The notes under the pieces: model-generated
Told to the model about the DNA's origin: nothing
Database searches by the model: none
Seen by the model: the letters and a program-made list of their open reading frames with translations, nothing else
From: an uncultured bacterium
GTDB lineage: Bacteria > Omnitrophota > Omnitrophia > Omnitrophales > JACQLI01
Length of the DNA stretch: 64,000 nucleotides
Assembly: GCA_964372875.1 (NCBI GenBank)
Contig: CAYJTB010000004.1
Span: 4,343-68,342 of the forward strand
Direction: 5' to 3'
Shown: in pieces, positions 17,806-49,866 of the stretch
How positions within the stretch are numbered: position 1 is the stretch's first letter
How the letters are laid out: each line of letters starts with the position of its first letter
Translations under genes and position numbers: made by a program

Positions 17806-18307
17806 CGTAATCCAGCGTATCGTGTTTTGCGGGCGCGGCAGACTTTGTGTAGTCTTCCGCATGATGCGTCGCAGGAGCGGGCTCGGGTTCTGAAACAACT
17901 TGACCTGTAGTATCTTGAGGAACCGCCAATTCGCCTTCTTCAAACTCCAAACAATTGGAATAGGAACGAGCCACGGGAAAACCATTAAAGCCTGGGACCC
18001 AAAACGTAACAACGTCCAAGGCGCCTGAGGTAAGACGTAGCGCGGTGCAGCCAAGACCACTACCCACACCTGTGAGCGTACCTACAATCGGCGGCCCGAC
18101 TTTTGAACCTTCTACCGTATGAACGATGATGTCTACAAAGGAGGTAACGATATTCAAAAGACCCCGTCCTAACATCCCCCCAAATTTAGTTCCGTAAACA
18201 GGAGAATTGGCAGCGCGCCAAACATCGTCAACTGAATCTTTTGCCCAGACCGAAGGAACCAACAATAAGGAAAGAATAAGTAAAAGCGCGATCTTTTTCA
18301 TCGACAT
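17795..18307 (-). CDS. Secreted protein, paralogous to 12796..13107.
   Basis: Signal peptide MSMKKIALLLILSLLLVPSVWA. It shares a core with the other small secreted protein and has a Pro/Glu-rich acidic C-terminal tail. Confidence 0.4.
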   Translation of the reverse strand: MSMKKIALLLILSLLLVPSVWAKDSVDDVWRAANSPVYGTKFGGMLGRGLLNIVTSFVDIIVHTVEGSKVGPPIVGTLTGVGSGLGCTALRLTSGALDVVTFWVPGFNGFPVARSYSNCLEFEEGELAVPQDTTGQVVSEPEPAPATHHAEDYTKSAAPAKHDTLDYVRK

Positions 18308-18477
18308 GCTCCTTGTTTTTTAACTTGTGACAGTGACGTTAGAAAGAGTCAATAAAACCCCTTCATTATACTGAAGCTTCTTAAATTATCCATGATTTTT
18401 TAGCATGCGTTTTAGTCGATCTTTAAGGACCATTTAACCTCTCTCTATCTAGTATTAATAACAATTTATAGCAATAG

Positions 18478-18506
18478 TTGACAAATATATACTATTGTGC
18501 TATTTT
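18478..18506 (+). promoter_or_regulatory. Sigma70-like promoter (TTGACA, 17-nt spacer, TATTTT) in the AT-rich spacer ahead of the HTH and NusG-like genes.
   Basis: TTGACAaatatatactattgtgcTATTTT. The surrounding roughly 290 nt are strongly AT-rich compared with flanking DNA. Confidence 0.35.
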
Positions 18507-18595
18507 TTGCTAGGGATTTCAACAATTTGAACTCATTTGAGTCAAGTTGAGATCAATAAAGATCACGCAAGTTAGCGAAAGGAGATATATAAATC

Positions 18596-18820
18596 GTGAA
18601 CGAAGACCTAAGAGAAAATAAGAGAGCGGAATACCCTCGCCGCGAGAGAACTCAAATCATGACACCGAAAGAGGCCGCAAAGTATTTGGGGTTCCATCTT
18701 GTGACCATCTATCGGCTGCTTAAGAAAAGAGAAATTCCTGCCGTAAAGATCGGCGGTCAGTGGAGATTTAAGAAAGACGTTTTGGATGCTTGGCTTGTGG
18801 AACGGATGGGAAGAGCTTAA
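18596..18820 (+). CDS. Small helix-turn-helix DNA-binding protein of the excisionase/AlpA (HTH_17) family.
   Basis: MTPKEAAKYLGFHLVTIYRLLKKREIPAVKIGGQWRFKKDVLDAWL is a canonical HTH_17 fold. The start is GTG at 18596 (with AAGGAGA RBS) or ATG at 18659. Confidence 0.6.
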   Translation: MNEDLRENKRAEYPRRERTQIMTPKEAAKYLGFHLVTIYRLLKKREIPAVKIGGQWRFKKDVLDAWLVERMGRA

Positions 18821-18843
18821 ACCTCTCAGAGGATTACCCATCG

Positions 18844-19365
18844 ATGGTTATCGCATCAAGTTCTGTATCTTGGGATGAGTTACATTGGTATGCCCTTTAC
18901 ACAAAAAGCCGGCATGAGAAAGTAGTTGAGGAAGGGCTTCAAGGTAAAGGAATCAAGACCTTCCTTCCAACCCGGAAACTTATTCGTCATTGGACGGACC
19001 GGGTCAAGCATATCGAGGAACCCATCTTTAAGGGTTACCTTTTCGTTCAAATCCCCTTGAGAAAACAATTGGAAGTCTTGGAAACCCGCGGCTCCGTTCG
19101 TCTGATTGGGTTTAATTCTTTTCCAGTTCCTATTCCTGAAAAAGAGTTAGAGACTGTCCGAAAATTTATTCAAGAGGACATTGCAATTGATCCCTACCCT
19201 TATTTAGCGGTGGGGAATCGGGTCTATGTCCGTTCCGGCCCGTTCAAAGGGGTCGAAGGTTTTATTGTTCGTAAAGACCGGCATACGCGCCTCGTGATGT
19301 CACTGGATCTTTTATTTCAATCGATCTCTGTCGAAATCGACGAAGCGCTTGTAGAAAAAATATAG
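18844..19365 (+). CDS. NusG-family operon-specific transcription antiterminator (RfaH/UpxY/LoaP-like paralog).
   Basis: An NGN domain (WYALYTKSRHEKVVEEGL...PIFKGYLFVQ) plus a C-terminal KOW (GNRVYVRSGPFKGVEGFIVRKD). It sits immediately upstream of the long plus-strand glycan locus. Confidence 0.7.
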   Translation: MVIASSSVSWDELHWYALYTKSRHEKVVEEGLQGKGIKTFLPTRKLIRHWTDRVKHIEEPIFKGYLFVQIPLRKQLEVLETRGSVRLIGFNSFPVPIPEKELETVRKFIQEDIAIDPYPYLAVGNRVYVRSGPFKGVEGFIVRKDRHTRLVMSLDLLFQSISVEIDEALVEKI

Positions 19366-19569: not shown

Positions 19570-21546
19570 ATGTGCGGAATCGCAGCCATATTTGCTTACC
19601 ACTACGTAGCTCCTGAGGTCAATCGGGAAGAGCTCCGGCTTATAAGAGATGCCATGGCTTCCCGGGGCCCCGACGGTGTAGGCGAGTGGTTTTCTGAAAA
19701 TGGGAAGGTCGGCTTGGGACACCGCCGGCTTTCCATTATTGATCTTTCTCCCAGAGGCGCCCAGCCGATGCAAACGGAAGACGGAAAAATTGTCGTGAGC
19801 TTCAACGGAGAAATTTATAACTATCGCGAGTTGCGTTCAGACCTCGAAAACAAAGGTCGTATTTTCAGATCGAATTCAGATACCGAAGTCCTGCTTCATC
19901 TTTATCAATTAAAAGGCCAGGCAATGGTTCACGATCTTCGGGGAATGTTTGCCTTTACATTGTGGGACGGCAGAAAAAATTCTTTGTTCCTTGCACGCGA
20001 TCCCTATGGGATCAAACCTCTTTATTATGCGGACGATGGCTGGACGGTTCGAGTTGCCTCTCAAGTCAAAGCACTGCTAAAAAGCGACAAGGTTTCAAAA
20101 TTAGCCGAGCCCGCCGGAACCGTGGGTTTTTTTCTGATGGGCAGCGTTCCCGAACCCTACACGCTTTATCAAGAAATCCGTCAAGTCCCCGCAGGGAGTT
20201 ATGTTTGGGTGGATGAGCTGGGACCGTCATCACCGAAAAGATATTTTTCGATTGCGGAGATTTTAACGTCATCGCGAGGAGGCCGTAGAGATCCCTCGCT
20301 CGTCATTGCGAGCCCGACGAAGTCGGACGAAGCAATCTCGGGCTCGGGACAGGCTCCGCAATCCGGTTCTGAGATTGCTTCGGCATCACTTGAAACACCG
20401 CCTCGCAATGACGTAAGTGTTCACTCCGCGCTTCTCGACTCCGTTCGCCATCATTTTGTTTCGGACGTTCCGGTGGGAATATTCCTTTCCGGCGGAATTG
20501 ATTCGGGATCCTTGGTATCTCTTGCAAGAGAGACCGGAATCCAAGATCTGCAAACCATGACTTTGGCATTCGAAGAATTTTACGGAGGTTCTTTGGATGA
20601 GATGCTTTGGGCAGAAACCGCCGCCCGAAAATTCGGCACCCGGCATACCTCACATACTCTTACGGAAAATGAATTCAAAAAAGAATTACCTCACTTTTTT
20701 GAATCCATGGATCAGCCGACAATTGATGGAGTGAATACTTATTTTATAAGTAAGGCCGCCCACGAATCGGGATTAAAAGTTGCTTTGTCAGGCCTTGGCG
20801 GAGATGAACTCTTTGGCGGCTACTCAACTTTTCAGGATATTCCTCGGCTGGTTGGGGCATTGGCCTTTCCCTCAAGAATTCCATTTTTGGGCGACGGTTT
20901 TCGTCATTTGTTTTCTATTCCAAGCCTACGACCAAAGTCGTTACACCCTAAATATGCGGGCCTTCTCAAATACGGTGCAAGCTATTCAAGCGCCTACTTT
21001 CTCCGACGCGGGCTTTTCATGCCGTGGGAATTAGACTCGGTGATGGGCAAAGAGATGGTTCACGAAGGATTAAACAGGCTTCAATTACTGCCGTCGATAA
21101 AAAGGACGCTTCAGCCCGAACCCAAAGATCCTTTTGCCAAAGTTGCCACCTTGGAGTCTTCCTTATATATGCGCAATCAACTGCTCCGTGATACCGATTG
21201 GGCGGGAATGGCTCACTCTTTGGAAGTGCGTACACCTTTCGTCGACTCAACGCTTCTAAAGAAACTGGTCCCTTTTTTAGTTTCTGAAAATCATCCTCAT
21301 AATGCCGGAAAAAAAATTCTCACCGGAAGTCTTAGCAATCCTTTACCCGGAGAAATTACCCGTCGTGCGAAAACAGGTTTTTCTGTCCCCGTGGAAAAAT
21401 GGTTGGAAAAAGGCGGCGAATTAGATATGTGGCAGCGAATCCCCAGCTTGCAAAGCCAAGGGACTCCGTGGGCCAGGCGGTGGGCTTATGTCGTGATGTC
21501 AACTTTCAATAATGCAGTCGTAAAAGAGGAGGCGAGTGTCACATGA
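19570..21546 (+). CDS. Asparagine synthase (glutamine-hydrolysing)-like amidotransferase, paralog 1. It contains an in-frame palindromic-element insertion.
   Basis: MCGI N-terminal nucleophile Cys, an Ntn glutaminase domain and an SDVPVGIFLSGGIDSG PP-loop. The ORF-track start at 19519 is upstream of the real MCGI start. Confidence 0.85.
   Translation: MCGIAAIFAYHYVAPEVNREELRLIRDAMASRGPDGVGEWFSENGKVGLGHRRLSIIDLSPRGAQPMQTEDGKIVVSFNGEIYNYRELRSDLENKGRIFRSNSDTEVLLHLYQLKGQAMVHDLRGMFAFTLWDGRKNSLFLARDPYGIKPLYYADDGWTVRVASQVKALLKSDKVSKLAEPAGTVGFFLMGSVPEPYTLYQEIRQVPAGSYVWVDELGPSSPKRYFSIAEILTSSRGGRRDPSLVIASPTKSDEAISGSGQAPQSGSEIASASLETPPRNDVSVHSALLDSVRHHFVSDVPVGIFLSGGIDSGSLVSLARETGIQDLQTMTLAFEEFYGGSLDEMLWAETAARKFGTRHTSHTLTENEFKKELPHFFESMDQPTIDGVNTYFISKAAHESGLKVALSGLGGDELFGGYSTFQDIPRLVGALAFPSRIPFLGDGFRHLFSIPSLRPKSLHPKYAGLLKYGASYSSAYFLRRGLFMPWELDSVMGKEMVHEGLNRLQLLPSIKRTLQPEPKDPFAKVATLESSLYMRNQLLRDTDWAGMAHSLEVRTPFVDSTLLKKLVPFLVSENHPHNAGKKILTGSLSNPLPGEITRRAKTGFSVPVEKWLEKGGELDMWQRIPSLQSQGTPWARRWAYVVMSTFNNAVVKEEASVT
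20301..20413. repeat. Palindromic repeat element, copy C (CGTCATTGCGAGC ... GCTCGCAATGACG), inserted in frame within the AsnB-like coding sequence.
   Basis: A perfect 12-bp terminal inverted repeat, a nested inner inverted repeat (GAAGCAATCTC / GAGATTGCTTC) and a CCGAC-GAA-GTCGG hairpin. It encodes a low-complexity S/A/P/G-rich linker that is absent from the paralog at 40455. Confidence 0.65.
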
Positions 21547-22565
21547 ATATTAGCTGGGAAAGATGCCGGGTGCTTGTAACAGGCGGGGCTTCATTTATTG
21601 GCTCAAGCCTTGTCAGAGAACTAGTGGTCAGGCAAGCGAAGGTGCGGGTTGTAGACAATTTAACCAGCGGAAAGTTAGGCAATATTCAAGATCTGGTCGA
21701 AGACGAGACCATCGAATTTATGCAAGGAGATCTCCTTGATAAAGAAACAGCACGTCATGCGGCCAGTGGGATGCAAGTTGTTTTTCACTTGGCTGCGGAT
21801 CACGGCGGACGCGGCTATGTGGATCTGCATCAGGTGGAATGCGCTACCAATTTAATTCTAGACGGGATTTTTTTTAAAGCTTGTTATGAGGCAGGCGTTG
21901 AAAAAGTAGTCTTCGCCTCTTCAGGCTGCGTTTACCCGAATTACAAACAAATGAATACGGCGGAAGAAATTTATCTAACCGAAAATCAAGTGGGCCCGCC
22001 TTATGACGCGGATAATATGTACGGCTGGGCGAAGCTTATGGCGGAGCTCACACTTAAGGCTTATTACCAGCAGCGAAAAATGAAATCCGCAAGCTGCCGG
22101 TTCTTTACGGTCTACGGCCCGGGAGGAGTTGAGAATCACGCGGTCATTGCAATGATCGCGCGCGCCTTTACCCGGCAGGATCCTTTCGAAGTTTGGGGCG
22201 ACGGATCGCAGATCCGCAATTGGACCTACATCGATGACATTGTGAGCGGGATGATCGCGGCGGCGGAAAAAATCGAGGACGGCACGGCGGTTAATCTCGG
22301 CACGATGGAAAGAATCCGCGTGATTGACGCCGTAAAAGAAGTCTTGCGATATACCGGCCATAAAGCTGAGATCAAATTTCGTCCTGATATGCCGACCGGG
22401 CCCCTGAACCGAGTGGCTGACAACTCGCTGGCCAAAAAATTGATGGGTTGGGAACCCAAAGTTTCATTTATGGAAGGCCTTCACCGGACGATTGATTGGT
22501 ATGTCGGCACTAAAAATCGTGAGGATGTGGAAGCGATTCTCGGCCACATGCTGACGGAGCGATAA
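21543..22565 (+). CDS. NAD-dependent sugar epimerase/dehydratase (extended SDR).
   Basis: VTGGASFIGSSL Rossmann motif and YGWAK (YxxxK) active site. Confidence 0.7.
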   Translation: MNISWERCRVLVTGGASFIGSSLVRELVVRQAKVRVVDNLTSGKLGNIQDLVEDETIEFMQGDLLDKETARHAASGMQVVFHLAADHGGRGYVDLHQVECATNLILDGIFFKACYEAGVEKVVFASSGCVYPNYKQMNTAEEIYLTENQVGPPYDADNMYGWAKLMAELTLKAYYQQRKMKSASCRFFTVYGPGGVENHAVIAMIARAFTRQDPFEVWGDGSQIRNWTYIDDIVSGMIAAAEKIEDGTAVNLGTMERIRVIDAVKEVLRYTGHKAEIKFRPDMPTGPLNRVADNSLAKKLMGWEPKVSFMEGLHRTIDWYVGTKNREDVEAILGHMLTER

Positions 22566-22570
22566 AACGG

Positions 22571-23644
22571 ATGAAAATTTTAGCCTTGGTAACGGAGGCC
22601 TATGGAGGAGCGGGAGGAATCGCCAGGTTTAATCGCGATCTTCTTAAGGCGCTGTCTCAAATCGAACCTCAGCCAGAGATCGTAATATTACCGCGCGTTC
22701 GCCCCTACGGGGCTCGCAATGACGGATTGGTAGGTAAATTAGGTTACGCTACTGCGGCCTTAAAAACATTTTGGCAACAAGGCCCTTTCGATTTAATTTT
22801 CTGCGGCCATCTTCACTTAGCGCCTTTGGCCGCGCTTCTTTCACGAATGAAGAAAACGCCGGTTTGGCTTCAAATTCACGGCATCGAGGCATGGCAGAGA
22901 CCGTCTGATCTTCTCGCCCGGGCGGCGGAGAGCTCAGATCTTGTCACTGCGGTAAGCCGCCATACCCGAAGAGAATTTTTAGAGTGGGCCTCTATCGATC
23001 CTGGGAAAGTGCGCGTTCTCCCCAATACCGTGGATGAAAATTTTACCCCCGGTCCCAAACCGGACTACCTGCTCAAGCGTTACGGATTAGAAAATAAAAA
23101 AATTCTTTTCACCCTCTCCAGGTTGTCCTCTCAAGAAAAATATAAAGGCCATGACCGGGTTATCCGTGTCCTGCCACGCCTCCTGGAAAAATTCCCCAGC
23201 CTCGTTTATACGATCGGAGGATCGGGCGATGATCAAGCCAGGCTCCAGGCGCTAGCCGGGGAGTACCGATTAAAGGATGCGGTGATGTTTCTGGGTGAAA
23301 TCAAAGAGACCGAGCTTGCCGATCATTACCGCATGGCGGATCTTTTTGTGATGCCGAGCACGGGAGAAGGATTTGGGATCGTATTTCTTGAGGCGGCCCG
23401 CTCAGGAATTCCTGTTGTCGCTGCCGGGGCGGGAGGAGCTTTCGATGCCCTGCTGGAAGGAAAGATCGGGCGCTTGGTGAATCCGGATGATGCTGATGCG
23501 CTGGCGCAAGCCATTGAAGAAACTTTAGCTTCCCGTACCCATTCCCCCAAACTTGTTCAGCGATTTTCTTCCGCCAACTTTCACCAGTTGGTTGAAACTT
23601 TGATGAATGACCGGCTTGTTTTGACGGGTGTTGAAAATGGTTAG
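22571..23644 (+). CDS. Glycosyltransferase family 4.
   Basis: C-terminal EGFGIVFLEAARSGIPVVA (E-x7-E) GT-B motif. Confidence 0.75.
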   Translation: MKILALVTEAYGGAGGIARFNRDLLKALSQIEPQPEIVILPRVRPYGARNDGLVGKLGYATAALKTFWQQGPFDLIFCGHLHLAPLAALLSRMKKTPVWLQIHGIEAWQRPSDLLARAAESSDLVTAVSRHTRREFLEWASIDPGKVRVLPNTVDENFTPGPKPDYLLKRYGLENKKILFTLSRLSSQEKYKGHDRVIRVLPRLLEKFPSLVYTIGGSGDDQARLQALAGEYRLKDAVMFLGEIKETELADHYRMADLFVMPSTGEGFGIVFLEAARSGIPVVAAGAGGAFDALLEGKIGRLVNPDDADALAQAIEETLASRTHSPKLVQRFSSANFHQLVETLMNDRLVLTGVENG

Positions 23645-24506
23645 CCTGGAACGAATTAAAAACGCAATCCGGAACCGGTATTTTTCAGAAAACCGGGTTG
23701 TCGTCATTGAACCGGCAAAAGGCTGGCGGATGTTGGACTTCAGAGAACTCTGGGCTTATCGGGAACTGTTTGGGGTATTGGCATTAAGAGACATCAAAAT
23801 CCGCTATAAGCAAACGGTCCTGGGTTGCGCCTGGGCCGTCATTCAACCGGTGATGGGAATGGTGGTGTTTTCTGTTATTTTCGGACATTGGGCCAAGATA
23901 CCCTCAGACGGTTACCCGTACCCAATTTTTGTTTATGCCGGACTTCTCCCTTGGAATTTTTTTGCGGCCACTCTGGCCGCAGCGGGAAATTCCGTGGTGA
24001 GTTCCTCCAATCTTATCACTAAAGTTTATTTCCCTCGCCTGATCGTTCCCATGGCTTCTTTAGGGACACCTCTTGTGGACTTTTTCATTTCCTCGTTTGT
24101 CATGCTGTCGCTCATGATATATTTCAAAGTCGGATTGCATATCAACCTTCTCGCGATTCCATTTTTGATTCTCGCCGTTATTTTTACCGCGCTCGGCGTG
24201 GGGACTTTGCTTTCGGCTTTAGTCGTTGCGTACCGCGACTTCCGATTCGTGATCCCCTTTCTTTTGCAAGTCTGGATGTATGCGACGCCCGTGATTTTTC
24301 CGATCGGGCTTGTGCCGAGCCAATGGCGGTGGGCGCTTTATCTCAATCCGATGGCCGGCATCATCGATGGGTTCAGGTCTGCATTTTTGGGAAAACCTTT
24401 TAATCTCGATGTCCTTGGGCTTTCCTTTTGTGCGGGCATCGTCATGTTTATTATTGGGGTAGCTTATTTCGAAAAAGTCGAGCGCCGTTTCGCGGATGTA
24501 ATTTGA
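23628..24506 (+). CDS. wzm: ABC-2 type polysaccharide export permease (Wzm/KpsM/TagG-like).
   Basis: Six TM helices and an ABC-2 permease signature. The cognate ATPase lies about 3.9 kb downstream, beyond an accessory insertion. Confidence 0.8.
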   Translation: MLKMVSLERIKNAIRNRYFSENRVVVIEPAKGWRMLDFRELWAYRELFGVLALRDIKIRYKQTVLGCAWAVIQPVMGMVVFSVIFGHWAKIPSDGYPYPIFVYAGLLPWNFFAATLAAAGNSVVSSSNLITKVYFPRLIVPMASLGTPLVDFFISSFVMLSLMIYFKVGLHINLLAIPFLILAVIFTALGVGTLLSALVVAYRDFRFVIPFLLQVWMYATPVIFPIGLVPSQWRWALYLNPMAGIIDGFRSAFLGKPFNLDVLGLSFCAGIVMFIIGVAYFEKVERRFADVI

Positions 24507-24507
24507 T
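24454..24507. repeat. A 54-bp perfect direct repeat, copy 1, covering the 3' end of wzm. Copy 2 is at 26077-26130.
   Basis: Exact identity (TTGGGGTAGCTTATTTCGAAAAAGTCGAGCGCCGTTTCGCGGATGTAATTTGAT) at both positions. Confidence 0.85.
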
Positions 24508-24544
24508 ACCCGCCAACGGTCACCGAAGAAAGCTGCTCTTTTGG

Positions 24545-25699
24545 GTGGAGAACTACCACAGTTTTTATGATCAATACCTCCAAGCGCATCCTGAATTAGA
24601 AAAAGAATCCTTTGAAGGGATCAGCCGGAAACTCTATGAACAAATGTTTTATCAAGCGGATAGTTACGCTTACGCCGCTCGCGAGCTCGGGTATGACGCC
24701 GGGCAAGTGATTCCCACATGCCGCTCCCTTCAGGAGCGATGGGGAGCCGAACACGGAATGTCGTTCCCCCCTCGCTGGTTGAGCTCGAGACCCTGGCGCT
24801 GGTGGTGGACACGGATCGCTGGAAAACCGCACCCCAAGGAGTCGTTCTATGAAAAAATTCTATTGAAACAACTCGAGGAATTTCGTCCCGATCTTCTCTA
24901 TATTTTCACCGGGGCGCCGATAACGTCCTCACTCCTTGCAAGGGCCCGAGAATTCTGCAGCCGCATTGTCATTCAGTGGACCTGTCTCATTGACCCGAGC
25001 CATCCTTTTCATTTGTACGACGAAGTGGTTTCGTGTGCACGAAATTTTGTCGAAGACTTTCGCAGCATGGAAGTTCCCGCGGCCTTCTGTCCCCACGCTT
25101 TTGACGAAAGGGTGCTGAATAAAATTCGAATACCTGCAAACAAAGAAGGAGCGGTGTTTGTAGGAAGCCTATCCGCACTGCACCGGCACCGGATTGAAAT
25201 TCTCGACCAACTTTCGAGGCAAATGGATTTTGACTTCTACGGCATGGGGGTCGAGTGCCTCCTCAAAGATTCGCCGTTGAGGAAATATTACCGGGGCCCG
25301 GTCTTCGGGCTTCCGATGTATGAGGTTTTCTCCCGCTGCCGGGTTGTAATCCATGCTTCAGGAGACGCCACCCTGCCCGCTGCCGGAGCCAAGAGACTTT
25401 TTGAAGCAACCGGAGCCGGCGCCTTTCTTCTGACCGAGGACCAGCTGGGGCTTGGAGAGTTCTTTGAAGTTGGAAAAGAAGTTGAGACCTTTTCAAGCGT
25501 GGAGGAATGCGCCGAAAAAGTTCGATATTTTCTATCACATGATTCAGCCAGAGAAGCAATCGCTAAAGCGGGTCAGACGCGGACACTTCGCGATCATACG
25601 TTTCGGGTTCGGATGCCGAAACTCATGGAGATTCTGGAGAATGTCATCGAAGGTAAGGGAGCTCGGGAGACCGTTGCAAGAAGAGCGAAACTCGTTTGA
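24545..25699 (+). CDS. CgeB-family (DUF3880 / Glyco_trans_1_2) glycosyltransferase-like protein. The start is uncertain and the gene may be 5'-truncated at the repeat junction.
   Basis: The C-terminal region (RYFLSHDSAREAIAKAGQTRTLRDHTFRVRMP) resembles CgeB-type GT domains and is paralogous to 52332..53360. No canonical start follows wzm in frame, and GTG at 24545 is the first candidate. Confidence 0.45.
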   Translation: MENYHSFYDQYLQAHPELEKESFEGISRKLYEQMFYQADSYAYAARELGYDAGQVIPTCRSLQERWGAEHGMSFPPRWLSSRPWRWWWTRIAGKPHPKESFYEKILLKQLEEFRPDLLYIFTGAPITSSLLARAREFCSRIVIQWTCLIDPSHPFHLYDEVVSCARNFVEDFRSMEVPAAFCPHAFDERVLNKIRIPANKEGAVFVGSLSALHRHRIEILDQLSRQMDFDFYGMGVECLLKDSPLRKYYRGPVFGLPMYEVFSRCRVVIHASGDATLPAAGAKRLFEATGAGAFLLTEDQLGLGEFFEVGKEVETFSSVEECAEKVRYFLSHDSAREAIAKAGQTRTLRDHTFRVRMPKLMEILENVIEGKGARETVARRAKLV

Positions 25700-26085
25700 G
25701 TGGATTAACGGTGAAAAAGAAATCGACAGGCCGTGAACAAGCTCAGGGATTCAACTTCTTCAAAAAAGCGGGGCCTTCTTCATCCTCCTGGGAGAATCAA
25801 GTTCGCAGCCTCTGGAGGGAGTATCTCGTTGAGACGTTGGGGAGACCCGAGGAGAATGCCCGCGAGAGGATCGAGCAAGAGATTTCAGCTTCTATCTATC
25901 ACGAACTTCTCTCCGGATTGGAAACGGCGGGATGGAAATTTGAGGGAAGCGTGGCCATTGACATCGGCTGCGGCACGGGCGGCCTTGTGGGTGAACTCGT
26001 AAAACGATCGGCCCATGCGGTGGGAATCGAACCCGGCACGGCTTGGCGCGAAGCGCCGAGCCAACGGCTGTTATCCTTGGGGTAG
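25696..26085 (+). pseudogene. 3'-truncated class I SAM-dependent methyltransferase fragment.
   Basis: Only motif I (IDIGCGTGGLVGELV) and motif post-I are present. The ORF runs into direct-repeat copy 2 and stops after 129 aa. Confidence 0.5.
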
Positions 26086-26130
26086 CTTATTTCGAAAAAG
26101 TCGAGCGCCGTTTCGCGGATGTAATTTGAT
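26077..26130. repeat. A 54-bp perfect direct repeat, copy 2, duplicating the wzm 3' end.
   Basis: Identical to 24454-24507. Confidence 0.85.
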
Positions 26131-26214
26131 GAATGTTGGATGGTTGAGGGGTTGGGTCGTTGAACCGGGGGAAATTAGGACAGGCGGAGATAATCCCGGA
26201 TGTAGCGGACGATC

Positions 26215-26679
26215 TCAATTTGAACCATGGCCGGAAGGGGTTCCCAGATTTTTCAAATACCGGGTCAAATAAAATTGCTGAATGCGTCTGAGAGGGGCCG
26301 TATCTTGATAACGACGAAAAGTATCAACAAAGACCTGCTGTTCCAGGAGAGAATCGCGGCAGTAGACGAGGATGCCCTGCGTGAAAGTTTGATATTGAAG
26401 AAGAGGCGGTGCTTGGTTGAGGAGGACCAAATCGATCCGATTACTTTGAAAAGCACTCATGAGGCAGCCTGTGAGATGAGCTTCGTAGCCGTAAGGATAT
26501 TTTTTCTCTCCGGCTTTTTCCTCATTAATAAAGACACCCATGTCAATATCGCTGAGGGGTGTTGTCCGGCCTTGGACAGAGGATCCGAAGAGGTAGGCGA
26601 ACGAGACCTCCTCCCGCTTTTCACAGAAGGCGACAAGCTTTTGTTTGAGTGTTTCAAGATCCAAAATCATAGCAGGCAA
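26215..26679 (-). CDS. Nucleotidyltransferase-domain protein (MNT / Pol-beta superfamily), solitary.
   Basis: LFGSSVQGRTTPLSDIDMGVF (GS...DxD) minimal nucleotidyltransferase motif. It lies on the opposite strand to the surrounding locus and has no adjacent HEPN partner. Confidence 0.65.
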   Translation of the reverse strand: MPAMILDLETLKQKLVAFCEKREEVSFAYLFGSSVQGRTTPLSDIDMGVFINEEKAGEKKYPYGYEAHLTGCLMSAFQSNRIDLVLLNQAPPLLQYQTFTQGILVYCRDSLLEQQVFVDTFRRYQDTAPLRRIQQFYLTRYLKNLGTPSGHGSN

Positions 26680-26780
26680 AGCTTAGACGAGCGGACCCGT
26701 TTTGTCAATTTGTTGAATCGTGGATCGTTGAAGTGGTTGAGCGGCCATCGCAACAGGCCTTGAAATTATATTTCAATATG

Positions 26781-26796
26781 TTATCATAAATGATAA
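26781..26796. promoter_or_regulatory. Perfect inverted repeat TTATCATaaATGATAA about 10 nt upstream of the abiEi start. It is a candidate autoregulatory operator.
   Basis: Two 7-bp palindromic arms with a 2-nt spacer. AbiEi antitoxins are known to bind inverted repeats in their own promoters. Confidence 0.4.
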
Positions 26797-26805
26797 TTAA
26801 ACAAA

Positions 26806-27444
26806 ATGAAATTTATAGAGTTCGTACAGGCCTTTGGGAGACTCCCCCTCATTGAAACAGAAAATCTGTTGGCAGGAGCCGCCGATAGCGCCGCGATTAA
26901 AGTGCAACTCAGCCGTTGGACAAGAAGTGGAAAAATTATTCAGCTCAAAAGGGGCGTCTATCTTTTGGCCGAGTCCTATCGCCGGGTGGAGCCTTACGAA
27001 CCTTTTATCGCATCCATTTTGAAAAAGCCGTCTTATCTGAGCCTTGAAAAAGCCCTTGAGCATCATCATTTAATTCCGGAAAGTGTGCCCGTCTATACCT
27101 CGGTGACCCCCAAAGGGCCAGCGAGATTTATTTCCGAACTAGGCAGTTTTAATTATCGGCACATCCAGCCTTCTCTTTTCTGGGGATACGAATCAGTCAC
27201 CGTTCGCCGCCAAACAGCCTTTATCGCTACTCCGGAGAAAGCTCTCTTAGATTTGATCTATCTCAAAGCAGGAGAAATTTCCGGGGATTACTTGGAAGAA
27301 ATGAGGCTGGAGAACCTTCAAGCCCTCCGGCCTACCCGAGTTTTGGCGCATGCCGCGCGCTTTAACATGCCCCGTATGGCGCGCGCAGCCCGAGTGCTCA
27401 CCGCTTTTATCCGCTCACGCCGCCGGGAGGAAAAAACGCTTTGA
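26806..27444 (+). CDS. abiEi: Type IV toxin-antitoxin / abortive-infection antitoxin AbiEi-family protein.
   Basis: An N-terminal wHTH and an AbiEi_4-like domain (KRGVYLL...KALLDLIYL). It is followed by an AbiEii-family nucleotidyltransferase gene. Confidence 0.65.
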   Translation: MKFIEFVQAFGRLPLIETENLLAGAADSAAIKVQLSRWTRSGKIIQLKRGVYLLAESYRRVEPYEPFIASILKKPSYLSLEKALEHHHLIPESVPVYTSVTPKGPARFISELGSFNYRHIQPSLFWGYESVTVRRQTAFIATPEKALLDLIYLKAGEISGDYLEEMRLENLQALRPTRVLAHAARFNMPRMARAARVLTAFIRSRRREEKTL

Positions 27445-27463
27445 TCCCATCACCTCCATTGCA

Positions 27464-27500
27464 AAAGGATGCCAATAAAGATCAGGAGCATCCTTTTGAA
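27464..27500 (+). terminator. Hairpin (GGATGC-loop-GCATCC, extendable to AAAGGATGC/GCATCCTTT) followed by TTTTG, between abiEi and abiEii. It could be an intrinsic terminator or attenuator.
   Basis: A stem of 6-9 bp, a 15-nt loop and a U-run. It sits in the 105-nt gap between genes that are normally tightly coupled. Confidence 0.3.
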
Positions 27501-27549
27501 ACCCTGTGGGTTTCCTCGATGCGAGGCATCGAAGAATGGAGATGATGGG

Positions 27550-28359
27550 ATGAAAGATTACGTTCTCGAGCTCGCTCGGTCCCAAAAAGATTCAAATGCC
27601 AAACTGAACACGATGCGCGAATACCTTCAGGCTTACATTTTAAAAATCTTGCACGGGCAGGGTTTTTTTCGGACGAATGCCTTTGTGGGAGGCACAGCCT
27701 TGAGATTTCTCCATGGCTTGCCCCGTTTTTCAGAAGACTTGGATTTTTCGAAGGAGAAGCAACCCGCCGATTCTTTCGAAGCATTTTTAAAAAAACTTAA
27801 GCGCGAATTGGAGCTAGCCGGCTACGAAATCTCCATTTCCTGCCGAGATCAAAAAACCGTGCAAAAGGCATCGGTCAAATTTGAGGCCCTCCTGCACGAA
27901 GCCGGGCTTTCGCCTCTTCCGGGACAAAAATTGGCCGTCAAACTCGAGATCGATACCCATCCTCCTGAAGGAGCCGGCTTAAAAACAGAAATTGTTAACA
28001 AATATTTCCCAATCGCCTTCCTCTCGTATGACCTGCCATCCCTTTTTGCCGGAAAATTGACGGCGCTTTTTTTAAGAAGGTACACCAAGGGCCGGGATCT
28101 TTTTGATTTGGGGTGGTATCTATCCCGTTGGAGAGGGCTGGTTCCCAACCTAGCGCTTTTGCGGAACGGACTCGAACAGGCTTCTTGGCGGGGACCGCTT
28201 CCGACAGAATCAACTTGGCGGGATCCAGTTTACGGTTTCGTTGAGAAAATCGATTGGGAACGAGTTAGAGAAGACGTCCAAAATTTCCTGGAGAACCCCT
28301 CTGATTTGGATGTTTTTACCAAAGACAACGTACTTGGGCTCGTTAAGGAAAAGCGTTGA
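27550..28359 (+). CDS. abiEii: AbiEii/AbiGii-family nucleotidyltransferase toxin (DUF1814).
   Basis: TMREYLQAYILKIL...FVGGTALRFLHGLPRFSEDLDFS is the AbiEii NTase motif (GG...SxDxD). The start is taken at MKDYVLE. Confidence 0.7.
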   Translation: MKDYVLELARSQKDSNAKLNTMREYLQAYILKILHGQGFFRTNAFVGGTALRFLHGLPRFSEDLDFSKEKQPADSFEAFLKKLKRELELAGYEISISCRDQKTVQKASVKFEALLHEAGLSPLPGQKLAVKLEIDTHPPEGAGLKTEIVNKYFPIAFLSYDLPSLFAGKLTALFLRRYTKGRDLFDLGWYLSRWRGLVPNLALLRNGLEQASWRGPLPTESTWRDPVYGFVEKIDWERVREDVQNFLENPSDLDVFTKDNVLGLVKEKR

Positions 28360-28363
28360 GTTG

Positions 28364-29641
28364 ATGGACGTCATCAAAGTCGAAAGTCTTTCCAAGCAGT
28401 ATACGATCGGGGCATCGCAAAAATACCACAGCTTTCGGGAAATGCTGGCGGAGCAATTCAAAGCGCCGCTTCGTTGGATCAAGCATCGGGGGCAGCGTCG
28501 AGGGAACCAACAAAAGATTTGGGCTTTGAAGGACGTTTCCTTCGAAGTCCAACAAGGGGAAGTTGTCGGCGTAATTGGCCGGAACGGCTCCGGGAAAAGC
28601 ACGCTTCTCAAGATTCTTTCCCGGATTACAGATCCCACAAGGGGCCGTGCTGAAATCCACGGCCGGGTGGCAAGTCTCTTGGAAGTCGGAACAGGTTTTC
28701 ACCCTGAGCTTACAGGAAGAGAAAATATTTATCTGAACGGAACCATCCTTGGAATGAGACGGTGGGAGATCACGAAAAAGTTCGACGAGATCGTGGCCTT
28801 CGCCGAGATCGAAAAATTCATCGATACTCCCGTGAAGCGCTACTCGAGCGGCATGTACGTGCGTTTAGCGTTCGCCGTCGCGGCTCATCTCGAGCCAGAA
28901 ATTTTAATTGTCGATGAAGTTCTTGCGGTGGGGGATGTTGCGTTTCAAAAAAAATGTCTGGGGAAAATGGGTGATGTAGCCAAGCAGGGTAGGACGGTGC
29001 TTTTTGTTAGCCACAATATGGATGCCATTATTACCTTGTGTCAACGAGCCATTCTTTTAGTAGATGGCCATATTGGAATGGAAGGCGTTGTTGATAAAAC
29101 AGTGACGCATTTTTTGTCCCTCCTTCGTATGCAACGAAGCCAAATCCGCGGGGAAGTATCACTTACTGATCACCCCGGCCGCTTAAAAAAAACAGAACAA
29201 TTGGTTCGAATTACATACTGCAAAATATCGGATCACTTTGGTAAGCCGGAAACATTTTTTAAATCAGGAGAAGAAATTCAGATTGTCGTTGGCTATGAAA
29301 GTAAGGCTACAAAAGGAAATTTGCCCCTAGCGTTTTTTGTTATTTTCAATGACATGATGGGAAGGCGTATTTTTTGTTGTTCGAACGAATTCGTGCAGCG
29401 TTCTTTTAACACCTTGCATCCAAAAGGGGAGGTTAAGTGTGTGATTCCCAAGCTCCCTCTTGCGCCCGGCAATTACACTATTACTATTTCATGTAAGGTG
29501 GGGCCGACTTGGTCCGATGGAGTCTACGAAGCTGTGGAAGTGGAAGTGCTCAGCGGAGATTTCTTTGGAACAGGGTATTCCCCTCAAAGGGAATTTGGTA
29601 GTTCTTTGGTTCAACACCACTGGCTTCCAAATTCAAAATGA
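28364..29641 (+). CDS. wzt: Polysaccharide ABC exporter ATP-binding protein (Wzt/KpsT/TagH-like) with a C-terminal glycan-binding extension.
   Basis: Walker A GRNGSGKST, ABC signature YSSGMYVRL and Walker B ILIVDEVLAVGD. An extra roughly 190 aa of beta-rich C-terminus is typical of O-PS-terminus-binding Wzt domains. Confidence 0.85.
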   Translation: MDVIKVESLSKQYTIGASQKYHSFREMLAEQFKAPLRWIKHRGQRRGNQQKIWALKDVSFEVQQGEVVGVIGRNGSGKSTLLKILSRITDPTRGRAEIHGRVASLLEVGTGFHPELTGRENIYLNGTILGMRRWEITKKFDEIVAFAEIEKFIDTPVKRYSSGMYVRLAFAVAAHLEPEILIVDEVLAVGDVAFQKKCLGKMGDVAKQGRTVLFVSHNMDAIITLCQRAILLVDGHIGMEGVVDKTVTHFLSLLRMQRSQIRGEVSLTDHPGRLKKTEQLVRITYCKISDHFGKPETFFKSGEEIQIVVGYESKATKGNLPLAFFVIFNDMMGRRIFCCSNEFVQRSFNTLHPKGEVKCVIPKLPLAPGNYTITISCKVGPTWSDGVYEAVEVEVLSGDFFGTGYSPQREFGSSLVQHHWLPNSK

Positions 29642-38026: not shown

Positions 38027-38045
38027 ATAGATTCAGGAGGTCTTA

Positions 38046-38762: not shown

Positions 38763-38787
38763 CGGAAAGTTAAAGAATCTTTTAAAA

Positions 38788-49617: not shown

Positions 49618-49775
49618 AACCTACAATATACAAATTTTTTGTCAAGTATAATCGACAGAAAAGGGTGCCCCAGGCAAGCCCGGGGGAACCGGAGCAGTAC
49701 CTGCCCGAGGTTCCATGCCCTGGGCAGGTGGCCGAGCGAAGCGAGGTCCCTTGACATATTAACCCTAGCTCTCCT

Positions 49776-49866
49776 TGGCGAAGGCGAGGGAGGTCGCCAA
49801 CGGATCCTGGGCGAATGGAATTATGAACGGCAGTTTGCGCCGGTATTGGAGTTATTAAATGGTTAA
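49776..49866 (+). pseudogene. Orphan 3' fragment duplicating the end of the GT4 gene 47145..48296.
   Basis: It translates to GEGEGGRQRILGEWNYERQFAPVLELLNG* against the intact GERGRQRILSEWNYERQFAPVLKQLLVHR*. There is a 29-nt identical core, and its stop overlaps the next gene's ATG. Confidence 0.6.

What the first reader, a model, noticed from the sequence alone, without database searches (positions are those of the whole stretch)
24454..28363. A 3.9-kb accessory block (truncated GT and MTase, solitary MNT, AbiEi/AbiEii) inserted between wzm and wzt, bounded by a perfect 54-bp duplication of the wzm 3' end
Wzm and Wzt are normally adjacent and co-transcribed. Here wzm ends at 24506, and the identical 54-nt sequence TTGGGGTAGCTTATTTCGAAAAAGTCGAGCGCCGTTTCGCGGATGTAATTTGAT recurs at 26077-26130. 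Between the two copies lie a CgeB-like GT lacking a canonical start and a SAM-MTase truncated after motif I. After copy 2 come a reverse-strand MNT, then abiEi with a palindromic operator, a hairpin, and abiEii. Perfect identity of the repeat implies a recent event, such as site-specific or homology-mediated insertion, or a duplication. The truncated genes look like captured fragments of a different glycan locus.
Basis: seen in the sequence. Interest (0 to 1): 0.7.

Follow-up and report, generated by a model that had tools for sequence, protein, structure and literature searches.

The report
Recombination scar in a glycan-export operon
A perfect 54-base copy of the end of the wzm gene marks the spot where a sugar-transferase gene and half a methyltransferase gene were spliced into a site between two glycan-export genes that already held toxin-antitoxin cassettes; it is a real and instructive recombination footprint, but not a new kind of system.

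Summary
The 54-nt perfect direct repeat (24454-24507 and 26077-26130) is real. An independent k=31 assembly of run ERR3478686 also contains both of its unusual junctions.

The repeat brackets only 1,569 bp, not the whole 3.9-kb block. Those 1,569 bp hold a full-length CgeB-like glycosyltransferase, which has a TTG or GTG start and is not truncated. They also hold the first ~40% of a ~300-aa SAM methyltransferase.

The rest of the block is older. Relatives L085 (Wzm 93% identical) and L089-L091 (52%) carry an MntA-HepT module between wzm and wzt. In this window HepT has lost 123 codons in frame, so MntA is an orphan. AbiEi/AbiEii is intact.

In 67 other wzm-wzt loci the two genes are usually adjacent. 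Eight of the ten long gaps hold TA-like cassettes. Four loci with stacked cassettes carry diverged duplicates of wzt 5' ends, and L020 also has a wzm 3'-end copy.

Best explanation (confidence about 0.55): a donor allele reading wzm-GT-MT recombined homologously in wzm and illegitimately inside MT, joining 54 nt upstream of the recipient's wzm stop. A single crossover of a circularised fragment would give the same product. This is "cassette stacking", analogous to type VI secretion (T6SS) immunity-gene and Rhs orphan-gene arrays.

The result is a new variant of a known kind and of moderate interest.

The parts
23628..24506 (+). wzm, the ABC-2 permease of the glycan exporter. Its last 51 nt plus the stop codon form repeat copy 1.
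   Evidence: Pfam ABC2_membrane, 1.1e-22. It is 93% identical in protein to L085 Wzm. Nucleotide identity to L085 is mosaic, with a breakpoint near 24322.
24454..24507 (+). Repeat R, copy 1: the native 3' end of wzm, its TGA and one T.
   Evidence: Exact 54-nt match, two copies in the window, none in shuffles.
24503..25699 (+). Full-length CgeB-like glycosyltransferase. The probable start is TTG 24503, overlapping the wzm stop as TTGA. The alternative start is GTG 24545.
   Evidence: Pfam Glyco_trans_1_2, 2e-29. End-to-end alignment with 12 homologues; their first Met aligns with 'RRKLLF'. P0001 is the 384-aa NCBI gene call. GT-then-MTase fusion proteins exist (P0027, P0060).
25696..26076 (+). 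MT': the N-terminal ~40% of a ~300-aa Class I SAM methyltransferase. It has a TTG start overlapping the GT stop (TTGA). The reading frame ends at a TAG 9 nt inside R copy 2.
   Evidence: Weak Methyltransf_23 hit to profile positions 14-53 of 164. Homologues P0128-P0137 are 281-317 aa and match only over their first ~110 residues.
26077..26130 (+). Repeat R, copy 2: an ectopic copy of the wzm 3' end. Its left edge (26076|26077) is the illegitimate joint. Its right edge continues into the ancestral sequence downstream of wzm.
   Evidence: Logan contig L075 (run ERR3478686) equals 24478-26106, which is the unique 1,569 bp plus exactly 30 nt of R on each side. L086 and L087 stop 30 nt into copy 2, and L088 stops exactly at its left edge.
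26135..26166 (+). Four tandem 8-nt units: GTTGGATG GTTGAGGG GTTGGGTC GTTGAACC. A looser array of the same unit lies at 26708-26744, so the two arrays flank the MntA cassette.
   Evidence: The pattern is found only here in the window; 0.15 matches expected. Equivalent arrays flank MntA-HepT in L085, at 9918-9975 and 10866-10907.
26175..26228 (-). HepT remnant of 17 codons (MVQIEIVRYIRDYLRLS*). It results from an in-frame 369-nt (123-codon) deletion between two TCCGC microhomologies.
   Evidence: L085 9931-10466 matches window 26740-26205, and L085 10831-10866 matches window 26209-26174. Sequences were read. The intact L085 HepT scores 117.9 bits against NCBIfam HepT_toxin (cut-off 60).
26215..26679 (-). 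MntA, the nucleotidyltransferase antitoxin of a type VII TA pair. It is now an orphan.
   Evidence: NCBIfam MntA_antitoxin, 81.4 bits (cut-off 60). Pfam Polbeta, 1.2e-19. It is 86% identical to P0166 of L085 and 55% identical to P0169 of L089-L091.
26760..26796 (+). abiE promoter TTGAAA-16-TATCAT, overlapped by two palindromes: TTGAAAT/ATTTCAA and TTATCAT/ATGATAA.
26806..27444 (+). abiEi, the antitoxin and repressor of a type IV TA / abortive-infection pair.
   Evidence: PADLOC AbiEi, 2.4e-53, full length. The Pfam AbiEi_4 hit is weak.
27439..27556 (+). Structured abiEi-abiEii spacer. A 22-nt closing stem pairs the abiEi stop region with the abiEii Shine-Dalgarno sequence and ATG 27550. It encloses three hairpins.
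   Evidence: Inverted repeat I2. RNA fold -63.5 kcal/mol, z = -6.4.
27550..28359 (+). abiEii, the nucleotidyltransferase toxin. The longest ORF starts at 27469.
   Evidence: Pfam AbiEii, 6.8e-25. PADLOC AbiEii, 2e-64, full length.
28364..29641 (+). wzt, the ABC ATPase with a C-terminal glycan-binding domain. Homology to L085 resumes exactly at its ATG.
   Evidence: Pfam ABC_tran + Wzt_C. blastn: L085 9073-9678 matches window 28969-28364.

Best explanation
The region is a layered cassette stack at the wzm|wzt junction. The 54-bp repeat is the scar of its most recent layer.

Ancestral state in this clade: wzm, then HepT and MntA on the opposite strand, then further cassettes, then wzt.

Proposed event: DNA from a closely related donor entered the cell. 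In the donor, a CgeB-like GT and a SAM-MTase follow wzm directly, with translationally coupled TTGA overlaps. The incoming DNA paired homologously within wzm. Its other end lay inside the MT gene. That end was joined illegitimately to the recipient 54 nt upstream of the recipient's own wzm stop, probably at a microhomology of up to 6 nt (TTGGGG).

Product: wzm-R-GT-MT'|R-(delta-HepT)-MntA-AbiEi/AbiEii-wzt. The new cassette sits next to wzm and the older cassettes are pushed downstream. An equivalent route is a single crossover through R by a circularised R-GT-MT' fragment.

Shown directly:
- the repeat and both of its junctions;
- that the GT is intact and the MT is truncated;
- that MntA-HepT between wzm and wzt is ancestral;
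- the HepT deletion;
- analogous duplicates in other loci.

Inferred: the existence of the donor allele, the direction of the event and the microhomology.

Likely consequences (inferred):
- GT can be translated by coupling to wzm.
- MT' is a dead fragment.
- MntA is an orphan antitoxin.
- AbiE is an intact, autoregulated module whose transcript probably runs into wzt, because its stop codon is 4 nt before the wzt ATG.
- The two R copies could recombine and delete the 1,623-bp unit.
For: 1. The repeat is exact and not due to chance.
2. Both non-canonical junctions (R>GT and MT'>R) exist as 31-mers in raw reads. Logan contig L075 is the unique 1,569 bp plus exactly k-1 = 30 nt of R on each side. 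L086, L087 and L088, from three runs, break inside or at the edge of R.
3. MT' stops about 40% of the way into a ~300-aa family, exactly at R. At that position 4 of 6 homologues have Gly, and one has Leu-Gly, where the window reads L-G from TTGGGG. This is consistent with a microhomology joint.
4. R ends one base after the wzm stop. This is expected if both 'wzm>GT' and 'wzm>HepT side' are native gene boundaries of two alleles.
5. The GT is complete and depends on a TTG inside R that overlaps the wzm stop. MT' starts the same way, and TTGA overlaps occur elsewhere in the operon (33323/33326). GT-then-MTase is also a natural pairing, seen as fusion proteins P0027 and P0060.
6. The wzm-HepT-MntA-wzt order is present and intact in L085 and in L089-L091. 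The R>octamer>HepT side is therefore ancestral and GT-MT' is the addition.
7. Cassette turnover and crossovers inside wzm are visible. The window and L085 share wzm and MntA at ~90% nucleotide identity but carry different AbiE pairs, and L085 has an extra cassette encoding a 23S rRNA intervening-sequence protein (Pfam 23S_rRNA_IVP, here 'IVP'). wzm identity to L085 changes from 95-99% to 71-85% at about 24322.
8. The same footprint occurs elsewhere in older form. L020 reads wzm-TA-wzt5'(97 nt, 85%)-wzm3'(78 nt, 76%)-...-wzt. L007, L011 and L022 have wzt 5' fragments between stacked TA cassettes.
9. Published precedents exist. HFIR-type displacement has been proposed for T6SS immunity arrays and Rhs orphan arrays (PMC5361080). 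Single crossover of circular molecules produced duplications of 109-950 bp in E. coli (PMC3240628).
Against: - No donor allele (wzm directly followed by this GT and a full-length MT) was found. None of the 71 GTDB wzm loci has a CgeB-like GT within 10 kb. No protein at least 90% identical to the window's proteins exists in the 15-billion-sequence collection.
- The microhomology is inferred from protein homologues, not from a donor sequence.
- Identity of the two R copies requires the donor and recipient to be near-identical over these 54 nt. That would equally fit an event within one genome.
- L085 stacks three cassettes without any wzm or wzt duplicates, so stacking does not always leave such scars.
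- Read-level confirmation of the order wzm-R-GT...MT'-R-MntA was not possible.
- A repeat length of 54 equals k-1 for the common assembly setting k = 55.
Confidence: 0.55

Rival explanations
1. Replication template switching within one genome (microhomology-mediated break-induced replication, or fork stalling and template switching). A fork copying the region switched templates and copied GT-MT' from another place in the same genome. It then re-primed 54 nt upstream of the wzm stop and so duplicated R. No second strain is needed.
For: - The two R copies are 100% identical, which is automatic if both derive from one genome.
- This lineage does make microhomology-mediated rearrangements: the HepT deletion lies between two TCCGC repeats.
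- Base composition and GC3 of GT-MT' (0.52-0.55 and 0.54-0.60) are close to those of the neighbouring genes.
Against: - The left junction would then also be illegitimate. Yet it falls exactly at the wzm stop and supplies the GT with a coupled TTG start and a complete N-terminus. That would be an unlikely coincidence.
- No second copy of the GT or the MT exists in the 64-kb window. The rest of the genome could not be searched.
Confidence: 0.15
2. Assembly or population artefact. The true molecules are wzm-R-MntA... plus a separate circular or tandemly amplified R-GT-MT' unit, or a mixture of strains. The contig threads them together through the shared 54-mer.
For: - A k=31 graph is identical for both topologies, and the Logan contigs break at R.
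- The repeat length of 54 is k-1 for k = 55.
- L076 ends in mid-wzm at 24172 without any repeat there, which hints at strain variation.
- L088 runs through the whole of R from the MntA side.
Against: - The MT'>R junction is real in reads whatever the topology, so a recombination event happened in any case.
- One linear haplotype explains all the k-mers most simply.
- A repeat shorter than k is resolved by actual reads in k = 55 assemblers (general knowledge of de Bruijn graph assembly, not tested here).
- A 1.6-kb circle with no replication or recombination gene is implausible.
Confidence: 0.1
3. Site-specific integration of a small mobile element that uses the wzm 3' end as its attachment site, in the way prophages and islands duplicate the 3' ends of tRNA or protein genes.
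For: - Direct repeats made of a gene's 3' end that keep the target gene intact are the classic attL/attR picture (general knowledge).
- The repeat contains a TTTCGAAA palindrome (read from the sequence).
Against: - Pfam scans of 50 of the window's 59 ORFs of at least 150 aa found no integrase, transposase or recombinase.
- The segment between the repeats carries only a GT and a broken MT.
- One 'element end' is a truncated gene.
- There are no terminal inverted repeats.
Confidence: 0.05
4. One reading: the whole 3.9-kb block (GT, MT', MNT, AbiE) is one recent accessory insertion between wzm and wzt, bounded by the repeat.
For: wzm and wzt are adjacent in most loci. All the intervening genes are accessory.
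Against: - The second repeat copy lies inside the block, not at its end.
- MntA(-HepT) lies between wzm and wzt in relatives whose Wzm is 52% and 93% identical.
- Its nucleotide identity to L085 (89%) equals that of wzm (90%), so it is as old as the flanks.
Confidence: 0.03

Closest known systems
Orphan immunity-gene arrays in Vibrio cholerae T6SS clusters, and Rhs/CDI orphan 3' arrays. Proposed mechanism: homology-facilitated illegitimate recombination (Kirchberger et al. 2017, PMC5361080).
   Same: - A conserved upstream anchor gene.
- New modules are added next to the anchor and older ones are displaced downstream.
- Truncated gene fragments are left between the modules.
- No dedicated recombinase is involved.
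   Different: - Here the anchor is a glycan-export permease gene.
- The modules are TA/Abi cassettes and a glycan-enzyme pair, not effector-immunity pairs.
- The scar is a duplication of the anchor's own 3' end.
Homology-facilitated illegitimate recombination (HFIR) in natural transformation (de Vries & Wackernagel 2002; Prudhomme et al. 2002; Meier & Wackernagel 2003, all as cited in PMC5361080), and single-crossover integration of circular molecules that duplicates the homologous segment (PMC3240628).
   Same: - One homologous side and one non-homologous joint.
- Foreign DNA is truncated at the joint.
- In the single-crossover route, the short homologous segment ends up duplicated on both sides of the insert.
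   Different: - Those are laboratory events. Here the event is inferred from one natural sequence.
- The homology available for a single crossover would be only 54 bp.
- Competence and the uptake route of this organism are unknown.
Integration of prophages and genomic islands into the 3' ends of tRNA or protein genes, with att duplication (own knowledge).
   Same: Direct repeats made of the target gene's 3' end; the target gene stays intact.
   Different: No integrase is present. The insert has one broken end. The repeat is not shared with any detectable mobile element.
Type IV TA / abortive-infection system AbiE (AbiEi/AbiEii; Dy et al. 2014 and Hampton et al. 2018, own knowledge).
   Same: - An AbiEi-AbiEii bicistron.
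- Full-length matches to the PADLOC models.
- Inverted repeats in the promoter.
   Different: - It is embedded in a glycan-export operon directly upstream of wzt.
- The inter-cistronic spacer is unusually long (~105 nt) and highly structured, and it occludes the abiEii start.
Type VII TA MntA-HepT (HEPN/MNT; Shewanella SO_3165/SO_3166, PMC4621449).
   Same: MntA scores above the NCBIfam cut-off. Relatives carry the canonical overlapping mntA-hepT pair.
   Different: In this window the toxin gene has been deleted in frame down to 17 codons. This is an orphan antitoxin, not a TA system.

Membership tests
Wzm/Wzt ABC-transporter-dependent glycan export locus | An ABC-2 permease, plus an ATPase with the Wzt C-terminal carbohydrate-binding domain. 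| tested here: met
   ABC2_membrane 1.1e-22; ABC_tran 7e-23 plus Wzt_C 3.4e-11.
Wzm/Wzt ABC-transporter-dependent glycan export locus | wzm and wzt are adjacent or overlapping. | tested here: not met
   There are 3,857 bp between the wzm stop and the wzt ATG. The gap is 100 bp or less in 52 of 67 comparison loci.
Type IV TA / AbiE | Full-length AbiEi and AbiEii (DUF1814 nucleotidyltransferase), in that order. | tested here: met
   PADLOC AbiEi 2.4e-53 (residues 1-199 of 212). PADLOC AbiEii 2e-64 (residues 12-266 of 269). Pfam AbiEii 6.8e-25.
Type IV TA / AbiE | Operator inverted repeats in the promoter, bound by AbiEi. | tested here: inconclusive
   Two perfect 7-nt-arm palindromes overlap the -35 and -10 elements. 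Binding cannot be tested with these tools.
Type IV TA / AbiE | Toxicity, and an abortive-infection phenotype. | not testable with these tools
   Requires an experiment.
Type VII TA MntA-HepT | An MntA nucleotidyltransferase antitoxin. | tested here: met
   NCBIfam NF047752, 81.4 bits, cut-off 60.
Type VII TA MntA-HepT | A cognate HepT (HEPN, Rx4-6H) toxin gene downstream. | tested here: not met
   Only a 17-codon remnant remains. 369 nt, including the RNRLVH motif, are deleted relative to L085.
Homologous + illegitimate recombination scar (HFIR or single-crossover type) | A joint between unrelated sequences that truncates a gene, next to a segment identical to resident DNA. | tested here: met
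   MT' is fused at 26076|26077 to a perfect copy of the wzm 3' end.
Homologous + illegitimate recombination scar (HFIR or single-crossover type) | Short microhomology at the illegitimate joint. | tested here: inconclusive
   The donor sequence is unknown. Homologues suggest the MT may have encoded (L)G at TTGGGG.
Homologous + illegitimate recombination scar (HFIR or single-crossover type) | An identifiable donor allele (wzm followed by GT and a full-length MT). | tested here: not met
   Not found in 71 GTDB loci, 5 JGI loci or the protein collections.
Site-specific integrative element | An integrase or recombinase gene, with att repeats at both element ends. | tested here: not met
   No recombinase domain was found in the 50 of the window's 59 ORFs of at least 150 aa that were scanned. 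The insert ends in a broken gene.
IS or transposon with target-site duplication | A transposase, terminal inverted repeats and a short target-site duplication. | tested here: not met
   There is no transposase and there are no terminal inverted repeats. 54 bp is far longer than known target-site duplications (own knowledge).
CgeB-like glycosyltransferase (Glyco_trans_1_2) | A full-length protein with conserved N- and C-terminal halves. | tested here: met
   28 invariant columns across 13 sequences. Homologues cover 90-97% of the query.
Class I SAM methyltransferase | A complete Rossmann-fold methyltransferase domain (motifs I to VI). | tested here: not met
   Only motif I (DIGCGTGG) and post-I (GIEP) are present. 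About 175 residues are missing compared with P0128-P0137.

The most novel reading that the evidence does not exclude
The boundary between wzm and wzt may be a conserved docking site for toxin-antitoxin and abortive-infection cassettes across phyla. Cassettes from at least eight families are found there. An MntA-HepT module has stayed there across lineages whose Wzm proteins are only 52% identical. Octamer arrays flank that module, and gene-end duplications recur between stacked cassettes. Together these could reflect either a dedicated capture mechanism that needs no recombinase, or a functional link between these modules and export of the phage-receptor glycan, for example AbiE-driven transcription of wzt.
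Probability: 0.15. Interest if true: 0.65.

Novelty: new variant of a known kind. Interest (0 to 1): 0.4.

Why it matters
O-antigen and capsule loci are among the most variable parts of bacterial genomes, and they set phage and immune specificity. This window catches a very recent step of that variation. One exact junction shows how a new glycan-enzyme cassette was stacked onto older selfish cassettes inside an essential export operon, without any mobile-element machinery.

The comparison loci suggest this is not a one-off. The wzm|wzt boundary repeatedly hosts TA and Abi cassettes and keeps the scars. If that holds up, it gives a simple, testable model for how defence or addiction modules and glycan genes become interleaved: one-sided homologous recombination between alleles. 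It would also provide a marker (duplicated gene ends) for dating such events.

Tried and rejected
- Exact-protein look-ups of Wzm with two alternative starts and of the NCBI GT call found nothing on record. The source is only known to be a 77,020-bp NCBI contig.
- The GTDB genome scan with Wzm found no relative above 53% identity and no locus with the same gene content. An 'empty site' comparison with a close strain was therefore impossible.
- A degenerate-pattern scan of JGI metagenomes found five loci at 64% Wzm identity, all with plain wzm-wzt adjacency.
- A word-based homologue search with MT' found only the fragment itself. The exhaustive HMMER search was needed to find full-length relatives.
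- MT' shows no significant similarity to the MTase next to a GT homologue in L083, or to the MT domain of the fusion protein P0027.
- The genomic contexts of GT homologues P0002 and P0004 were uninformative.
- Base composition and GC3 do not mark any part of the block as foreign.
- I considered whether the 43 nt to the right of copy 2 is a relic of L085's abiEi 3' end. The local alignment score (25) is within the range of shuffled controls (mean 22, maximum 31), so I rejected this. The octamer array is the real feature there.
- The 6-bp TTGATG found at both ends of the MntA-AbiE part (26126-31 and 28361-66), and the TGATG stop/start overlap resembling L077, were noted but are too short to carry weight.
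- Rfam and tRNA scans of the window found nothing.
- Literature searches found no description of TA cassettes between wzm and wzt.

Full report
**Observation**

The 54-nt sequence TTGGGGTAGCTTATTTCGAAAAAGTCGAGCGCCGTTTCGCGGATGTAATTTGAT occurs exactly twice in the window, at 24454-24507 and 26077-26130. None is expected by chance. The bases flanking the two copies differ (A/A versus C/G), so the exact repeat is 54 nt. Four of the six bases further upstream also match. Copy 1 is the last 51 nt of wzm (23628-24506, ABC2_membrane) plus its TGA and one T.

- a CgeB-like GT (Glyco_trans_1_2);
- a fragment with SAM-MTase motif I;
- a reverse-strand nucleotidyltransferase;
- AbiEi and AbiEii (PADLOC 2.4e-53 and 2e-64, both full length);
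- wzt (28364-29641, ABC_tran + Wzt_C).

Pfam scans of 50 of the window's 59 ORFs of at least 150 aa found no recombinase or transposase. The region sits in a long plus-strand glycan operon that opens with a NusG paralogue.

**Corrections to the description**

1. The GT is not truncated. It aligns from end to end with 12 homologues of 363-395 aa, and their initiator Met aligns with 'RRKLLF' of the window protein. No ATG is present. An in-frame TTG at 24503 overlaps the wzm stop as TTGA. MT' starts in the same way on the GT stop, and another TTGA overlap occurs at 33323/33326. The NCBI annotation uses GTG 24545 (P0001).
2. MT' is truly truncated. An exhaustive HMMER search found relatives of 281-317 aa that match only over their first ~110 residues. 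Pfam finds complete methyltransferase domains in those relatives.
3. The repeat brackets only the 1,569 bp of GT + MT' (24508-26076), not the whole 3.9 kb.

**Is the repeat an artefact?**

An independent k=31 assembly (Logan) of run ERR3478686 contains a 1,629-bp contig, L075, equal to window 24478-26106. That is the unique 1,569 bp plus exactly 30 (k-1) nt of R at each end.
- 31-mers spanning both R>GT and MT'>R therefore exist in raw reads, and R is a branching node in that graph.
- Contigs from three runs approach copy 2 from the MntA side. L086 and L087 stop 30 nt into it, and L088 stops exactly at its left edge.
- The MT'|R fusion is therefore real.
- A k=31 graph cannot show the linear order. 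The graph for wzm-R-GT-MT'-R-MntA is the same as for wzm-R-MntA plus a circle.
- The length of 54 equals k-1 for k = 55. Read-spanning evidence is still needed.

**Comparison with other loci**

In 67 GTDB loci that hold both genes, the wzm-wzt gap is 100 bp or less in 52, 100-300 bp in 5, and more than 300 bp in 10. Five JGI loci with 64% Wzm identity are also adjacent. The ten long gaps contain:
- cassettes encoding a 23S rRNA intervening-sequence protein (Pfam 23S_rRNA_IVP, 'IVP' below; L032, L041, L070);
- MNT/HEPN (L030);
- DUF4258/DUF2283 (L020, L022);
- PIN/Phd, UPF0175/DUF3368 and HicB-like genes (L007);
- UPF0175/DUF3368, HicA, PD-(D/E)XK and DUF7718 genes (L011);
- in two cases a non-TA gene: a Branch-family GT (L056) and a BNR-repeat protein (L006).

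Where several cassettes are stacked, fragments of the flanking genes lie between them:
- L007 has three or four copies of the wzt 5' end (119-nt blocks, 72-92% identical).
- L022 has a 233-nt wzt 5' duplicate (88%).
- L020 reads wzm-TA-wzt5'(97 nt, 85%)-wzm3'(78 nt, 76%)-...-wzt.

L020 is thus an older, diverged example of the same footprint as this window: a duplicated wzm 3' end.

**The key relative, L085**

The MntA homologue P0166 (86% identical) led to L085, a 14.9-kb Logan contig. Against the window it shows:

| Gene | Identity |
|---|---|
| Wzm | 93% protein, 90% nucleotide |
| MntA | 89% nucleotide |
| wzt 5' end | 79% nucleotide |
| AbiE pair | 27-31% protein |
| CgeB-like GT | 30% protein |

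Its gene order is wzm, AbiEii, AbiEi, then intact HepT and MntA on the opposite strand, then the IVP gene, then wzt. Homology to the window resumes exactly at the wzt ATG.

More distant loci L089-L091 (Wzm 52%, MntA 55%, HepT 69% identical to L085's HepT) read wzm, then HepT and MntA on the opposite strand, then wzt. Only one base separates the convergent wzm and HepT stop codons.

An MntA-HepT module between wzm and wzt is therefore ancestral to this clade. The sequence to the right of R copy 2 is the native continuation of wzm. GT-MT' plus one copy of R is the derived addition.

**HepT loss**

The window retains the first 8 and last 9 codons of HepT (26228-26175, MVQIEIVR|YIRDYLRLS*). Relative to L085, 369 nt (123 codons, including the RNRLVH HEPN motif) are missing between two TCCGC microhomologies. 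MntA scores above the NCBIfam cut-off, as does L085's HepT. The 'solitary MNT' is an orphan antitoxin left after the toxin gene was deleted.

**Mechanism**

Only one junction is clearly illegitimate: MT'|R at 26076|26077. R ends one base after the wzm stop. That is expected if 'wzm>GT' and 'wzm>HepT side' are both native gene boundaries of two alleles that share wzm.

The simplest history is as follows. A fragment from a closely related donor allele (wzm-GT-MT...) recombined homologously within wzm. Its other end, inside MT, joined the recipient 54 nt upstream of the recipient's wzm stop. The equivalent alternative is that a circularised R-GT-MT' fragment integrated by a single crossover through R.
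- In four of six MT homologues a Gly sits exactly where the window reads L-G from the TTGGGG of R, and in one it is Leu-Gly.
- Crossovers inside wzm have occurred in this clade. Identity to L085 is 95-99% from 23850 to 24321 and then drops to 71-85% up to the stop.
- The topology (new cassette next to the anchor gene, older ones pushed downstream, gene fragments left between) matches the model proposed for V. cholerae T6SS immunity arrays and Rhs orphan arrays (PMC5361080).
- Single-crossover integration that produces 109-950-bp duplications has been seen experimentally in E. coli (PMC3240628).

Weaknesses of this explanation:
- No donor allele was found.
- No protein at least 90% identical to the window's proteins exists in the collections searched.
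- The perfect identity of the two copies fits a template switch within one genome equally well.

**Function (inferred)**

- GT may be expressed by translational coupling to wzm.
- MT' is a dead fragment.
- AbiE looks intact. Its promoter TTGAAA-16-TATCAT is overlapped by two palindromes.
- The 105-nt spacer between the two abiE cistrons folds strongly (-63.5 kcal/mol, z = -6.4). It pairs the abiEi stop region with the abiEii Shine-Dalgarno sequence and ATG 27550, which suggests coupling by ribosome-mediated unfolding.
- The abiEii stop is 4 nt before the wzt ATG, so wzt is probably co-transcribed with abiE.
- The two R copies could recombine and remove the 1,623-bp unit.

**Verdict**

This is a real feature with a well-supported anatomy and a plausible, conventional mechanism. 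It is a new variant of a known kind of recombination footprint. The more interesting lead is the recurrent occupation of the wzm|wzt junction by TA and Abi cassettes, and the long-term residence of MntA-HepT there. I found no description of this in the literature searched.

Noticed in passing
window 26135-26166 and 26708-26744; L085 9918-9975 and 10866-10907: The MntA-(HepT) cassette is flanked on both sides by short arrays of an ~8-nt unit, GTTGRRNN on the window's plus strand. The left array is four strict units and is unique in the window (0.15 matches expected). The same arrangement is conserved in L085. The function is unknown; the arrays could be an operator or the cassette ends.
   Followed up: partly
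window 27439-27556: The abiEi-abiEii spacer folds into a four-way structure (-63.5 kcal/mol, z = -6.4). Its 22-nt closing stem pairs the abiEi stop region with the abiEii Shine-Dalgarno sequence and ATG 27550. This looks like a translational-coupling switch. No Rfam family matches it.
   Followed up: partly
L007 10807-16345; L011 3374-11463; L020 10813-12149; L022 6379-8291; L030, L032, L041, L070: In unrelated phyla (mostly Chloroflexota), the wzm-wzt gap holds TA-like cassettes: PIN/Phd, UPF0175/DUF3368, DUF4258/DUF2283, MNT/HEPN, HicA/HicB and genes for 23S rRNA intervening-sequence proteins (Pfam 23S_rRNA_IVP). Stacked cassettes are separated by diverged copies of the wzt 5' end, and in L020 also by a copy of the wzm 3' end.
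   Followed up: partly
L085 9931-10866; L090 2047-2920; L089 3623-4493: An intact mntA-hepT pair lies between wzm and wzt, convergent with wzm, in lineages whose Wzm is 93% and 52% identical to the window's. In L090 one base separates the two stop codons. This is a long-lived association of a type VII TA module with a glycan exporter.
   Followed up: partly
window 23450-24506 versus L085: Nucleotide identity of wzm to L085 is mosaic: 80-90% at 23450-23850, 95-99% at 23850-24321, and 71-85% from 24322 to the stop. This indicates a recombination breakpoint about 185 nt before the wzm stop.
   Followed up: partly
proteins P0027 (604 aa) and P0060 (635 aa): Natural fusion proteins have a CgeB-like GT at the N-terminus followed by a SAM-MTase domain, the same order as the GT then MT' genes in the window. 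This suggests the two act together as one glycan-modifying module.
   Followed up: partly
window 48322-49617 (minus strand): An AAA_14/DUF4143 ATPase gene lies on the opposite strand inside the otherwise plus-strand glycan operon. It is overlapped by a 289-aa plus-strand ORF (48997-49866). It may be another inserted selfish or defence gene.
   Followed up: no
window 18200-19365: A NusG/KOW paralogue (18790-19365) opens the glycan operon. It is preceded by a low-GC stretch (0.35-0.39 at 18200-18800). It is likely an operon-specific antiterminator with its loading region.
   Followed up: no
window 53293-54330: An intact 345-aa Methyltransf_25/11 protein is distantly related (28%) to the full-length relatives of MT'. 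It is not the source of the fragment, but it is a possible functional substitute.
   Followed up: no
window 35875-40470: NeuB, a UDP-GlcNAc 2-epimerase and a short (215-aa) cytidylyltransferase indicate a nonulosonic-acid branch of the locus. The cytidylyltransferase match starts at profile position 22. A 610-aa ORF with no Pfam match overlaps its end.
   Followed up: no
Logan contig L076, equal to window 19720-24172: This contig ends in the middle of wzm, where the window has no repeat. That may reflect strain variation in the sample from 24172 onwards.
   Followed up: no
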